Source: Ignavibacteriota bacterium
GTDB taxonomy: Bacteria > Bacteroidota > Ignavibacteria > CAWHAG01
DNA: 64,000 nt
Assembly (NCBI GenBank): GCA_963827285.1
Contig: CAWHAG010000001.1
Span: forward strand, 274,682-338,681
Direction of reading: 5' to 3'
In this document: piece after piece, positions 23,114-25,383 of the stretch
Layout: every line of letters begins with the position of its first letter
Position numbering within the stretch: position 1 is the stretch's first letter
Notes under the pieces: generated by a model
The model's database searches: none
Told to the model about the DNA's origin: nothing
What the model saw: only the letters and a program-made list of their open reading frames with translations
Program-made: the position numbers and the translations under genes

Positions 23114-25069
23114 CTATTTGCTGATGATCATTTTGTTTGTTTCAGTGAAACCCTTTGCCGACAGACGATAGAAGTACACACCGCTGGATAGAATGTCGAA
23201 TGTTCCCGCAAAGCGGGATCGAATATCGAATGTCACACGGTAGTTTCCAGGATTTTTTTCTTCATTTACCAAGGTTGCCACTTCTCTTCCAAGCACATCG
23301 AAGACTTTCAGCGTCACGTGTTCGCGCTGTGGAAGTGAGAAACGAATCGTGGTGGCAGGATTGAAGGGATTCGGATAATTTCGTTCAAGCCGATAGCCTT
23401 GCGGCGCCATGGGCAGAGATTCTTTCACGCTTGTGATGGCCGTCGTTGACAGCAAAACCCGAGATGGACAACTCGCATCGTGATAAATACAATTCGTCGC
23501 GACAAGCGTATCGCCTGGTTTGTAAAGAACACCGCCATTATTCAGGTTGATATCAAAACGTGGGTAGTCCGATGAACTCACATCAATCCGCAACTGGTGT
23601 CCCTTCAGAAACGTCATTGCAAGATTTTGCAGTTCAGTCGTCACAGGATATATTTGCCCGGGTGTCATTAAATCTTCCACACTGTACGAATTGCGGAAGC
23701 GCATTCGTCTGATACCAGCCGTCAGAATCATGGAGCGTCCGTCGGGGTACACATCGCACAAACGTACACCGAAGTCTGTATCTTTTCTGTTGGATGACAC
23801 ATAGAGTCGAACTTCTGTTGCTCCGTCCACCATCAAATCATTTTGGAGAACCGGAGTGGTGTACGTGAGAACATCGCTGCGGCTTTCAACACGCTGTCGC
23901 TGGTCGAGCGGTCCACCCTGAACCGACGGGTCAAACGGATTAAATCTCACACCGCCGTAAGAGGGTGTAGGATCGCGCGGATTGTACCTCAACGAATCAG
24001 GTGTGGCACTCTGTGGTGGTGCAGCTCGTGATAACAAGCCGCCCGATTGCAGATACAACGTATCCGTTGCACCGCCGAGCGAATACCAATCGCTTGTTGA
24101 GCGCCATTCATCTGTTCCCATCTGGTAGTAGCGTATAGTCGGGTTTTGGTCGTACCCGCTCTGCATGTTCCGCAGATAGTAATCAAAGAAACGCATTGCT
24201 GCGGTATCAGAGATCCCAACGGCGTTCGGATACTCTAACTCTCCTTGCTTCGATTTTCCTATTTCTGAATGCATCCAGGGACCGATAATGAATTTGTGCT
24301 TCGAGCGAACTGATGGTGCACTTCTCGCTTTAAGATCATGAAAAGCACGAATCACATCATCAGGATAATGGTCGTACCATCCACCAATCAGAAGCATGGG
24401 TACGGCAATCGAATCGGGATAATCCGAACTTGTCTCGAGGAGCCTCCACATCGGATTATATGATGGGTTTGCTAATATGAACTCCGTCGGGAGAAACCCG
24501 AGTCTTTCCATCGTCTCATTGTGTTCCTTCAGGTAATCGCCACCATAATAAAAATTCGAGTACGCAATTTTATAATCTTTCACCAGCGGCATACTGCAGA
24601 CAAGATGCGGCGGATGGTGTTTGGCTGTCTGAAACTGAATGAGACCCAGAGCGGACGGTCCCCACGTACCGACTTTGCCATTGCACCACCGCCGATATGC
24701 TATCCATTCAACGGCATCGTAGCCATCCAAGCCTCTATCGTAGCCGGATACATCCGCATCCTTCGAGCCGTAGAATCCACGCCAATCAACAACTACGCAA
24801 TTGTAATGCACACTGTCGTAAGGAAACGATGAGCCGCCTGCTTCCGGCAGACCAACTCTGATGCGATAATAATTTTTGTTGTATGGTGTCTGGACGAGGA
24901 TGACGGGCTTTGCTGCAGTGGTGTCAAGGGAATATAGATCAGCCGCAAGAACTTTTCCATCACGGGTCGGAATCGTGATGGGAATGTAACGCGCTGTATC
25001 TTGAGCGAACATCCTGGAACCGAGCGTTGTTATAAGACAGACGATCAGATAATAAACTGTGATTTTCAT
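23114..25069 (-). CDS. CocE/NonD-family hydrolase (S15 Xaa-Pro dipeptidyl-peptidase-like) with T9SS C-terminal sorting domain
   Basis: 651 aa, signal peptide; [16 protein letters not shown] region; C-terminal [19 protein letters not shown]...[13 protein letters not shown]...GVYFYRL...KMIISK is a T9SS CTD. Confidence 0.7.
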   Translation of the reverse strand: [651 protein letters not shown]

Positions 25070-25383
25070 TCTATCACGACCATTGATTTTTGTTGGACAT
25101 ATTCACCGTCGCGAAGTTGATAAAGATATACACCGCTGGATAGAATGTCGAGTGTCGAATAACGAATGTCGTATGTCGCACGATAGTTCCCAGGACTCTT
25201 TTCTTCACTTACCAGGGTTGCCACTTCTCTGTCCAATACATCAAAGACCTCGAGAGAAACAGATGTAGAATTCGGGACTCGAAATTTGTCATTGGATTGA
25301 AGGGGTTTGGATAGTTCTGGGATAGCCGATGGTTGCTCTCTGTCATCCGTGTGGATAGCACTTCCACGATGGAACTGATTCAA
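25066..25383 (-). pseudogene. orphan T9SS C-terminal-domain remnant (frameshifted, no catalytic domain upstream)
   Basis: ORF encodes ...[52 protein letters not shown]...; QNYPNPFNP is in a different frame just upstream and preceded by a stop; DNA is clearly related to the 3' end of the adjacent S15 gene (23141-23300). Confidence 0.6.

What the first reader, a model, noticed from the sequence alone, without database searches (positions are those of the whole stretch)
23114..25383. Orphan duplicated T9SS sorting-domain remnant next to an S15 peptidase gene
A CTD-only fragment lies directly upstream of the S15 peptidase gene and shares clear DNA similarity with that gene's own 3' end. It has an internal frameshift between the NYPNPFNP motif and the beta-strand region, and a stop immediately upstream. 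This suggests CTD-mediated recombination or a decayed tandem cargo gene.
Basis: seen in the sequence. Interest (0 to 1): 0.5.

Follow-up and report, generated by a model that had tools for sequence, protein, structure and literature searches.

The report
Chimeric relic of swapped secretion cargo
A dead 0.3-kb leftover of a secretion-signal domain in front of a peptidase gene is stitched together from the tails of two neighbour genes that relatives still carry, which shows that genes for secreted enzymes here are swapped in and out by recombination inside their shared signal-domain sequence; it is an evolutionary footprint, not a new working system.

Summary
A CTD-only fragment (25066-~25367, minus strand) lies between cysS and the S15/CocE-NonD peptidase gene. 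It is frameshifted, has a stop just upstream, and resembles the S15 gene's own CTD (78.6% over 140 nt).

Relatives explain it. Two outgroup genomes carry cysS-[M14 carboxypeptidase+CTD]-asparaginase. The nearest relatives (cysS 96.7% aa) carry cysS-[CTD relic]-[geneY+CTD]-S15-asparaginase.

The window's fragment is a hybrid pseudogene:
- Its 5'/middle part is the relic of the M14 gene's CTD. The frameshift is a 7-nt deletion shared with the relatives' relic.
- Its last ~60 nt are the tail of geneY's CTD, still joined to the S15 start. The breakpoint is ~25126-25129.

The S15 CTD is also chimeric: S15-type 5', then M14-type from ~23308 through the stop into asparaginase. The two copies look alike because both hold pieces of the old M14 CTD.

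The fragment has diverged at about the neutral rate and has no start, signal peptide or cargo. The most likely history is cargo insertion and later deletion by CTD x CTD homologous recombination. This is an ordinary kind of object (a pseudogene relic), but it is a clear natural example of CTD-guided cargo turnover.

The parts
25126..25367 (-). M14-type part of the fragment. It is the relic of the pre-CTD linker and the first ~5/6 of the CTD of a lost Peptidase_M14 cargo gene. It contains NYPNPFNP (25293-25316).
   Evidence: blastn gives 78.6% over 271 nt to the 3' end of the L020 M14 gene, E 1e-59. tblastn matches L020_M14 residues 539-571 and 565-638. 66 of 78 informative sites are M14-type to the left of the breakpoint. 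L020_M14 is the best-scoring CTD for this part (685). The linker portion (25340-25367) is less certain.
25287..25295 (-). Site of the frameshift: a 7-nt deletion relative to the intact M14 CTD (L020 AATCCAATTACGAATGTCG vs window AATCCAATGAC).
   Evidence: Alignments. The same 7-nt gap is present in the relic of L023/L024/L028 from other samples, so it is an inherited mutation and not a sequencing error.
25066..25125 (-). geneY-type tail of the fragment (..[19 protein letters not shown]). Its stop TGA (25066-25068) overlaps the S15 start codon.
   Evidence: Window 25139->22999 is collinear with L024 5099-7259 (geneY CTD tail + S15 + asparaginase) at 87% over 2170 nt. The tail's best local score is 178 with L024_CTDy, against <=92 for all other CTDs. 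32 of 36 informative sites are geneY-type to the right of the breakpoint at 25126-25129.
25380..25382 (-). In-frame TGA stop upstream of the relic.
25368..25460 (-). Spacer between the cysS stop and the relic. Its origin is unknown, and it is absent from the nearest relatives.
   Evidence: No match in any fetched locus except the same-strain L015. L024/L028 lack it, and the missing stretch is flanked by CACGGAT-like repeats.
23114..25069 (-). S15 / CocE-NonD family hydrolase cargo gene with signal peptide and T9SS type A CTD (651 aa).
   Evidence: Pfam. NCBIfam TIGR00976 at 315 bits and TIGR04183 at 39 bits. dN/dS is 0.17 against the L024 ortholog.
23309..23395 (-). S15-type 5' part of the S15 CTD ([31 protein letters not shown]).
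   Evidence: It resembles the CTDs of S15 orthologs L016/L017 and not the M14 CTD: 34 of 50 informative sites are S15-type.
23114..23308 (-). M14-type 3' part of the S15 CTD (VFDVLGREV...[17 protein letters not shown]), continuous with the conserved stop-3 nt-ATG junction to asparaginase.
   Evidence: 82.9% over 269 nt to L020, from the middle of the M14 CTD into asparaginase (window 23311-23043). 51 of 63 (L016 as other parent) and 60 of 63 (L017) informative sites are M14-type, with 0 of 2000 permutations reaching the observed value. The tail motif RLSA.GFTET..M..SK* is shared with the L020 and L021 M14 genes.
23204..23218 (.). A 9-nt insertion forming a perfect hairpin (TCCCGC-AAA-GCGGGA) in the S15 CTD loop. 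The same insertion lies in the relic, not in the S15 CTD, of the nearest relatives.
   Evidence: Alignments; sequence. It indicates sequence exchange between the two CTD copies.
25461..26903 (-). cysS, the upstream syntenic anchor.
   Evidence: Pfam. Orthologs at 96.7%, 88% and 79% aa identity anchor the comparison.
22223..23110 (-). Asparaginase_2 gene, the downstream syntenic anchor.
   Evidence: Pfam. It follows the M14 gene in L020/L021 and the S15 gene in the window and L024.

Best explanation
The fragment is a non-functional, neutrally decaying hybrid pseudogene. It records two rounds of cargo-gene turnover at one chromosomal slot, both mediated by the DNA that encodes the T9SS C-terminal sorting domain (CTD).

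Proposed history:
1. Ancestral state (shown, kept in L020 and L021): recN-cysS-[Peptidase_M14 + CTD]-asparaginase-A2M.
2. In the common ancestor of the window organism and the L024 group, a cassette carrying geneY (an unnamed ~437-aa secreted protein with its own CTD) and the S15 peptidase recombined into the M14 gene's CTD. The right junction lies inside the CTD, at ..[13 protein letters not shown].., window ~23308. S15 therefore kept the 5' third of its own CTD and took over the resident M14 CTD's 3' two-thirds, stop codon and junction to asparaginase.
3. The M14 catalytic body (~1.6 kb) was deleted and a 7-nt deletion frameshifted what remained. This left a CTD-only relic after cysS. The relic and the 7-nt deletion are shared by the window and L024.
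4. In the window lineage, the relic and the geneY CTD, which are direct repeats ~1.4 kb apart, recombined at the conserved SGVY..Y.L stretch (~25126). This deleted geneY and fused the relic to the geneY CTD tail, which still abuts the S15 start.

The fragment resembles the S15 CTD because both contain the middle of the old M14 CTD, and the two copies have also exchanged sequence since.

Shown: the mosaic structure, the synteny, the shared 7-nt deletion, and the neutral rate of divergence.
Inferred: the order of events, that geneY and S15 arrived together, and that the enzymology was RecA-type homologous recombination.
For: Synteny.
- L020 (cysS 88% aa) and L021 (79%) have cysS-M14+CTD-asparaginase(-A2M).
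- L024 and L025 carry the full cysS-relic-geneY-S15-asparaginase arrangement, and shorter contigs L023, L026, L027 and L028 cover parts of it (cysS 96.7% aa).
- cysS and asparaginase identities give the tree ((window, L024), L020), L021, so M14 is ancestral.

Mosaic structure.
- The fragment's best match is the L020 M14 CTD (78.6% over 271 nt, E 1e-59; score 712 vs 581 for the S15 CTD).
- Its tail is geneY-type and collinear with L024 into S15.
- Maximum chi-square breakpoints:
  - Fragment at 25126-25129: 66 of 78 M14-type on the left, 32 of 36 geneY-type on the right.
  - S15 CTD at ~23308: 34 of 50 S15-type on the left, 51 of 63 M14-type on the right.
  - In each test, 0 of 2000 permutations reach the observed value.

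Conserved junction. The stop-NNN-ATG junction to asparaginase is conserved between the M14 genes and the S15 genes.

Pseudogene status.
- The 7-nt deletion is shared with relics from other samples.
- The L024 relic carries additional, different lesions: an 11-nt deletion in NYPNPF and a +1 insertion.
- The fragment and the L024 relic differ by 24%. Synonymous p-distances for the adjacent S15 and asparaginase genes are 0.275 and 0.297.
- There is no start codon, signal peptide or cargo. The ORF as it stands scores below the cut-offs (TIGR04183 22.5 < 23; Pfam 18.5 < 27).

Linkage of geneY and S15. The geneY ortholog (57.5% over its full length) lies three genes from the closest S15 ortholog in L016.

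Not an artefact. The region is identical in an independent assembly, L015.
Against: - No genome with the intermediate state (intact M14 followed by geneY-S15) was found. The metagenome scan was swamped by generic CTD hits.
- The direction of step 4 rests on parsimony only. A geneY insertion in the L024 lineage would give the same mosaic.
- A simple single-crossover model predicts that the two CTD copies switch type at the same coordinate. Instead, ~130 nt of M14-type middle is present in both copies. This needs either a donor CTD that was already similar there or later gene conversion.
- The 9-nt hairpin insertion lies in the relic in L024 but in the S15 CTD in the window. This requires extra exchange events.
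- Homology of the fragment's linker (25340-25367) to M14 is weak, and pre-CTD linkers look alike in general.
- The 93-nt spacer after cysS is unexplained.
- All relatives are metagenome contigs, not isolates.
Confidence: 0.8

Rival explanations
1. Same mosaic, opposite direction for the last step. The window-type hybrid fragment is the older state, and geneY was later inserted into it in the L024 lineage by recombination within the CTD.
For: Insertion and deletion by CTD x CTD recombination leave identical junction patterns. L029, a third S15 variant, has the window-type tail upstream of S15 (96% over 75 nt), so the window-type junction is not unique to one strain.
Against: It needs a donor and a second independent arrival of a gene that is already linked to S15 in the distant relative L016. 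Deletion between direct repeats 1.4 kb apart is a one-step event that needs no donor.
Confidence: 0.15
2. The fragment is a local partial duplication of the S15 gene's own 3' end, that is, a copy of its CTD placed upstream.
For: Direct repeats of 86, 37 and 37 nt at 76-86% identity lie ~1.94 kb apart. blastn gives 78.6% over 140 nt. A loop expansion (T[FY]DIR..DILSS) is shared by both copies.
Against: Outside the middle ~140 nt the two differ in type. The fragment's 5' part is M14-type (RLSQ..PNSTxVSL), not S15-type (RLER..[8 protein letters not shown]), and its tail is geneY-type. The fragment scores higher with L020's M14 CTD than with the S15 CTD. There is no similarity upstream of the CTD.
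Confidence: 0.03
3. Sequencing or assembly artefact. The frameshift is an error and the fragment belongs to a real small gene or a misassembled cargo gene.
For: A single-base repair in an A-run (ACAAA[A]TTT) would also restore a CTD reading frame. The Logan assembly L015 shows that 1-nt indel differences do occur in this region.
Against: The fragment is identical in L015. The lesion is a 7-nt deletion shared with relics from other samples and projects. Even when repaired, there is a stop 21 codons upstream, no signal peptide and no room for cargo, since cysS ends ~125 nt upstream of the motif.
Confidence: 0.02
4. The fragment is kept for a function. It could be a small CTD-like protein or leader ORF translationally coupled to S15 through the ATGA overlap, or it could carry the S15 promoter.
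For: There is a 105-aa ORF (TTG start) ending in ATGA at the S15 start. One sigma-70-like match on the minus strand lies inside it, at 25151-25123, with 9 of 12 positions matching. No terminator was found after cysS on the minus strand.
Against: Divergence from the L024 relic is at the neutral level, and each lineage has different disabling lesions. In L024 the stop and the S15 start do not overlap (TGA, 5 nt, ATG). A protein without a signal peptide cannot reach the T9SS (established knowledge of the pathway). There is no Rfam match. The promoter scan is a weak consensus match in an organism whose promoter type is unknown.
Confidence: 0.05

Closest known systems
T9SS type A C-terminal sorting domain (TIGR04183 / Pfam PF18962 Por_Secre_tail) on cargo proteins of the Bacteroidota/Ignavibacteria group
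   Same: The fragment is recognisably this domain. When frame-repaired it covers positions 2-71 of the 72-position TIGR04183 model at 31.9 bits (cut-off 23). It carries the NYPNPFNP and SGVY.Y.L motifs shared with five intact CTDs in the window.
   Different: It is not attached to any cargo. It has no start codon or signal peptide, is frameshifted, and as it stands scores below the family cut-offs. It is a relic of the domain, not a functional member.
Orphan toxin/immunity modules of Rhs and CdiA loci. In these loci new C-terminal tips are installed by recombination at a conserved motif and the displaced tips remain as promoter-less fragments. This description is from my own knowledge of the field; an Rhs preprint surfaced but I did not read it.
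   Same: A conserved module-coding sequence serves as the homology for cassette exchange, and truncated 'orphan' modules are left beside the active gene.
   Different: Here the conserved handle is the C-terminal sorting signal and the variable part is the N-terminal enzyme, so whole genes rather than tips are exchanged. The orphan lies upstream. There is no immunity gene and no sign that the orphan is reusable. I claim only an analogy of mechanism, not membership.
Domain rearrangements among Porphyromonas gingivalis T9SS cargo genes kgp/rgpA/hagA (Dashper et al. 2017, PMC5266723)
   Same: T9SS cargo genes diversify by recombination between repeated domain-coding segments, giving mosaics that do not follow the strain phylogeny, and an 'orphan' domain is described.
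   Different: In P. gingivalis the shuffled units are internal adhesin (CAD/DUF2436) domains within one family. Here the junctions lie in the CTD itself, and unrelated enzymes (M14, S15, geneY) replace each other at one locus.
Ordinary gene remnant left by deletion between direct repeats
   Same: It is a hybrid repeat copy at the deletion scar, with loss of the intervening gene, neutral decay and lineage-specific lesions.
   Different: Nothing essential differs. The only special point is that the repeats are the secretion-signal domains of different genes.

Membership tests
T9SS type A CTD (TIGR04183 / PF18962), functional cargo signal | Sequence matches the family model above the curated cut-off | tested here: inconclusive
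   The ORF as it stands scores TIGR04183 22.5 (cut-off 23) and Pfam 18.5 (cut-off 27). The ancestry is clear, but the present reading frame does not qualify.
T9SS type A CTD (TIGR04183 / PF18962), functional cargo signal | Located at the C-terminus of a protein that has an N-terminal Sec signal peptide and a cargo domain | tested here: not met
   There is a stop 21 codons upstream of the motif, and cysS ends ~125 nt upstream of the motif. There is no ATG-initiated ORF, no hydrophobic N-terminus and no cargo.
T9SS type A CTD (TIGR04183 / PF18962), functional cargo signal | Uninterrupted reading frame through all beta-strands | tested here: not met
   A 7-nt deletion lies between NYPNPFNP and the next strand.
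T9SS type A CTD (TIGR04183 / PF18962), functional cargo signal | T9SS machinery (PorV, SprA/Sov, PorU etc.) encoded in the genome | not tested
   Only indirect evidence: five intact CTD-bearing ORFs lie in the 64-kb window. Machinery genes were not searched for.
Pseudogene / gene relic | An intact homolog occupies the syntenic position in relatives | tested here: met
   A Peptidase_M14+CTD gene lies between cysS and asparaginase in L020 and L021. geneY+CTD lies between the relic and S15 in L024/L025.
Pseudogene / gene relic | Disabling lesions, with different additional lesions in sister lineages | tested here: met
   The 7-nt deletion is shared. The L024 relic additionally has an 11-nt deletion in NYPNPF and a +1 insertion. 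The window copy lost its original tail.
Pseudogene / gene relic | Divergence at about the neutral rate | tested here: met
   The fragment and the L024 relic are 76.3% identical over 190 nt. Synonymous p-distances are 0.275 (S15), 0.297 (asparaginase), 0.13 (cysS) and 0.18 (recN).
Recombinant (chimeric) sequence | Significant clustering of parent-specific sites on either side of a breakpoint | tested here: met
   Maximum chi-square values are 56.2 and 49.8 for the fragment and 27.7 and 48.9 for the S15 CTD. In every test, 0 of 2000 permutations reach the observed value.
Rhs/CDI-type orphan cassette system | The orphan retains a usable module (toxin tip plus immunity gene) that can be re-installed by recombination | tested here: not met
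   The orphan is a decayed sorting domain with no associated gene, and no cargo is attached. Only the recombination logic is analogous.
Peptidase S15 / CocE-NonD hydrolase (the neighbouring gene) | Family models above cut-off, an intact ORF and purifying selection | tested here: met
   TIGR00976 at 315 bits (cut-off 66). PF02129 and PF08530 match. dN/dS is 0.17 vs L024.

The most novel reading that the evidence does not exclude
The CTD-coding sequence may act as a general, portable homology handle, so that T9SS cargo genes behave like cassettes. Under this reading:
- New cargo genes are installed by recombining into a resident CTD, and the incoming enzyme inherits the resident signal's 3' end.
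- Cargo genes are removed by CTD x CTD deletion.
- Orphan CTD relics are the routine footprints, and possibly the landing pads, of this traffic across the Bacteroidota/Ignavibacteria group.

Some support beyond this locus:
- Partial orphan CTDs lie next to intact CTD genes in at least four unrelated loci: L005, L031, L075 and L098.
- S15 orthologs sit in tandem arrays of CTD genes, and in L017 the CTD of the gene next to S15 is closer to S15's CTD than orthologous S15 CTDs are to each other.
- The neighbouring rplS-recN slot also differs between this genome (a CTD cargo gene) and its relatives.
Probability: 0.4. Interest if true: 0.55.

Novelty: new variant of a known kind. Interest (0 to 1): 0.4.

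Why it matters
T9SS secretomes differ strongly between related strains. How unrelated enzymes come to carry the same sorting domain has mostly been treated as unspecified 'domain fusion'. This locus gives a resolved natural example with three states in close relatives:
- M14 cargo (L020, L021).
- Relic + geneY + S15 (the L024 group).
- Hybrid relic + S15 (the window).

All junctions fall inside the CTD, and an incoming peptidase now uses the resident gene's CTD tail. This suggests that the ~250-nt CTD sequence is both a secretion signal and a recombination substrate that lets cargo genes be gained and lost as units.

In practice, orphan CTD fragments should be annotated as pseudogene scars and not as small 'T9SS sorting domain-containing proteins'. 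CTD-based phylogenies or cargo counts can be misled by chimeric CTDs. The fragment itself has no evident function.

Tried and rejected
- Homology upstream of the CTD. A local alignment of 25320-25463 against the S15 gene scored no better than shuffles (125 of 500 shuffles reached the observed score). I therefore rejected 'duplication of a larger piece of S15'.
- Genome-contig scan with S15. The relatives found are at most 57% identical and show no conserved synteny. They were not useful for this locus.
- Protein search with the frame-repaired fragment. It returned only short CTD proteins (at most 182 aa, at most 53% identity). It did not return the relevant M14 or S15 proteins, so it could not identify the parent gene.
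- Relic of the M14 5' end after cysS. The ATG-led MHRFIHQYLIC looked superficially like the M14 MRSTFISSLL. DNA alignment with L020/L021 shows no homology, so I rejected this idea.
- The 93-nt spacer at 25368-25460 has no match in any fetched locus or elsewhere in the window.
- Metagenome-contig scan with the L020 M14 protein, run to find an intermediate state.
- Rfam scan of 24900-25600: no match.
- Promoter/terminator scan: only weak consensus matches.
- Pfam on geneY finds nothing but a weak CTD match. An SGNH-hydrolase-like reading of its motifs is my own impression and is untested.
- Three literature searches found no paper describing recombination within T9SS CTDs. The closest is PMC5266723.
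Full report
**What is at the coordinates.**

All genes here are on the minus strand, in the order cysS, fragment, S15, asparaginase.
- cysS lies at 25461-26903.
- A gene-less stretch lies at 25070-25460.
- A 651-aa S15/CocE-NonD hydrolase with a signal peptide and a T9SS type A CTD lies at 23114-25069.
- An Asparaginase_2 gene lies at 22223-23110.

The stretch in front of the S15 gene contains a CTD read in two frames.
- ..[14 protein letters not shown] is read in one frame.
- [73 protein letters not shown] is read in another.
- The TGA stop overlaps the S15 ATG.
- An in-frame TGA lies 21 codons upstream of the motif.

As it stands, the ORF scores below the family cut-offs (TIGR04183 22.5 < 23; Pfam 18.5 < 27). 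With the frame repaired it scores 31.9 on TIGR04183 and covers nearly the whole model.

**Is the similarity to the S15 3' end real?**

Yes.
- MAFFT gives 76% column identity.
- blastn gives 78.6% over 140 nt, E 9e-28.
- The repeat finder reports direct repeats of 86, 37 and 37 nt at 83, 86 and 76%.
- Among the six CTDs in the window, this pair scores highest: 581 against 464 for the next pair, and 172 +/- 23 for shuffles.

The strong similarity is limited to the middle of the domain. Nothing upstream of the CTD is shared.

The region is identical, frameshift included, in a Logan assembly of run ERR10755944 (L015). That assembly is 99.96% identical over 11.5 kb and differs by indels elsewhere.

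**Relatives.**

S15 orthologs are at most 65% identical and were not informative for this locus. cysS gave close relatives.

| Locus | cysS aa identity to window | Arrangement |
|---|---|---|
| L021 | 79% | recN-cysS-[Peptidase_M14+CTD, 630 aa]-asparaginase-A2M |
| L020 | 88% | recN-cysS-[Peptidase_M14+CTD, 640 aa]-asparaginase |
| L024, L025 (partly also L023, L026, L027, L028) | 96.7% | recN-cysS-[decayed CTD relic]-[geneY, ~437 aa, own CTD, no other Pfam domain]-S15 (655 aa)-asparaginase-A2M |

Identities of cysS and asparaginase give the tree ((window, L024), L020), L021. The M14 arrangement is therefore ancestral.

**Anatomy of the fragment.**
- Its best match anywhere is the 3' end of the L020 M14 gene: 78.6% over 271 nt, E 1e-59, spanning window 25367-25106. 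The global score is 712, against 581 for the S15 CTD.
- Relative to that intact CTD, the frameshift is a 7-nt deletion between AAT repeats. The same gap is in the L023/L024/L028 relic, so it is an inherited mutation.
- The last ~60 nt do not match M14-type tails. They match the tail of the geneY CTD in L024 (YVYQLRAGEYVRQKLMVLIK* vs [20 protein letters not shown]).
- From window 25139 onward, the window is collinear with L024 from the geneY tail through S15 into asparaginase: 87% over 2170 nt.
- A maximum chi-square test puts the breakpoint at 25126-25129. On the left, 66 of 78 informative sites are M14-type. On the right, 32 of 36 are geneY-type. No permutation of 2000 reaches the observed value.

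**Anatomy of the S15 CTD.**
- Its 5' third ([31 protein letters not shown]) is like the CTDs of S15 orthologs L016 and L017.
- From ~23308 to the stop it is M14-type. This M14-type stretch continues without interruption into the conserved stop-3 nt-ATG junction with asparaginase (82.9% over 269 nt to L020).
- The tail [17 protein letters not shown] matches the L020 and L021 M14 tails and not S15-ortholog tails.
- The breakpoint is supported: 34 of 50 informative sites are S15-type on the left, and 51 of 63 or 60 of 63 are M14-type on the right. No permutation of 2000 reaches the observed value.

Both copies carry the middle of the former M14 CTD.

**Pseudogene status.**
- The fragment and the L024 relic differ by 24%.
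- That matches the synonymous p-distances of the adjacent genes: S15 0.275 and asparaginase 0.297. cysS (0.13) and recN (0.18) are lower.
- The L024 relic has further, different lesions: an 11-nt deletion that removes most of NYPNPF, and a +1 insertion.
- There is no Rfam match. Only weak promoter-like matches were found.

**Most likely history.**
1. The M14+CTD gene was resident at this slot.
2. A geneY-S15 cassette recombined into its CTD, so S15 took over the resident CTD's 3' part.
3. The M14 body was deleted and the 7-nt frameshift arose. Both are shared by the window and L024.
4. In the window lineage, the relic recombined with the geneY CTD at the conserved SGVY..Y.L stretch. This deleted geneY.

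That geneY and S15 travelled together is suggested by L016. There the geneY ortholog (57.5% identity over its full length) lies three genes from the closest S15 ortholog, within an array of CTD cargo genes.

Uncertain points:
- The direction of step 4 is not settled.
- The M14-type middle is present in both copies, which a simple single crossover does not predict.
- The 9-nt hairpin insertion lies in the relic in L024 but in the S15 CTD in the window.
- Window-specific substitutions are shared by both window copies.

The last three points indicate further exchange (gene conversion) between the tandem CTDs. No genome with an intact M14 followed by geneY-S15 was found.

**Comparison with what is known.**
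- The object is a relic of a TIGR04183/PF18962 domain, not a functional member of that family.
- Mechanistically it resembles the orphan modules left by cassette exchange at conserved motifs in Rhs/CDI loci (this comparison rests on my own knowledge). It also resembles the domain rearrangements among P. gingivalis T9SS cargo genes (PMC5266723).
- Here the recombining handle is the sorting domain itself, and unrelated enzymes replace each other.
- Three literature searches found no description of this. That shows only that none is in the searched library.

**Generality (exploratory).**

I built an HMM from 112 CTDs and searched it against stop-to-stop ORFs of all fetched loci and the window.
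- It found 159 CTDs with at least 120 aa upstream in the same ORF.
- It found 18 CTDs with less than 120 aa upstream in the same ORF that lie away from locus ends.
- Excluding this locus and its duplicates, inspection showed partial orphan CTDs next to intact CTD genes in L005 (directly after an S15 ortholog), L031, L075 and L098.

The survey looked only for CTDs and has no control domain. Some of the other short hits may be assembly frameshifts.

**Verdict.**

The fragment is a chimeric pseudogene scar of CTD-mediated cargo turnover. This is an ordinary class of object with a moderately interesting evolutionary implication.

Noticed in passing
window 28909-29601 (-), compared with L020 5069-5884 and L022 5322-6056: The slot between rplS (L19) and recN holds a ~230-aa CTD-bearing protein in this genome. 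The relatives carry a VitK2_biosynth (MqnA-like) gene there. tblastn finds no relic of that gene in the window. This is a second case of gene turnover involving a T9SS cargo gene, two genes away from the studied locus.
   Followed up: partly
window ~24440 (S15 gene) vs L015 8464: The Logan assembly of ERR10755944 has one extra T that splits S15 into ORFs of 236 and 427 aa. This is either an assembly error or a strain variant that inactivates S15.
   Followed up: no
window 25150-25185 and 23195-23235; L024 S15 CTD ~7040-7080: The loop before SGVYFYRL in this CTD group is hypervariable in length. The fragment has 7-nt periodic CGACATT-like repeats. The window S15 CTD has a 9-nt insertion forming a perfect hairpin (23204-23218). 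The S15 CTDs of L024 and L029 have a 30-nt insertion (SSKGGYASGV).
   Followed up: partly
L017 1-7926; L016 2-7933: The closest S15 orthologs lie in tandem arrays of 4-5 CTD cargo genes. In L017 the CTD of the adjacent 393-aa gene is closer to S15's CTD (72.9% nt, with a 26-nt exact run) than orthologous S15 CTDs are to each other (~62%). This hints at concerted evolution of neighbouring CTDs.
   Followed up: partly
L005 ~3099-3310; L031 ~2951-3055; L075 ~4599-5000; L098 ~1750-1945: Partial, cargo-less CTD fragments lie in unrelated metagenome loci: directly after intact CTD genes in L005, L031 and L075, and isolated with no long upstream ORF in L098. In L005 the fragment follows the stop of an S15 ortholog in the same frame. 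Orphan CTD scars may be common.
   Followed up: partly
window 25368-25460: The 93 nt between the cysS stop and the relic have no homolog in any fetched relative except the same-strain L015. The nearest relatives lack this stretch, and the gap is flanked by CACGGAT-like repeats.
   Followed up: partly
L024 3706-5172: The gene caller's 488-aa 'geneY' starts inside the CTD relic, because the relic's shifted frame runs in frame into geneY. The likely true start is MNHFISLL.. (437 aa, with a signal peptide). geneY has no Pfam domain other than a weak CTD match. Motifs such as GMSN, DGAQGG and DGTHPS look SGNH-hydrolase-like to me, but I did not test this.
   Followed up: no
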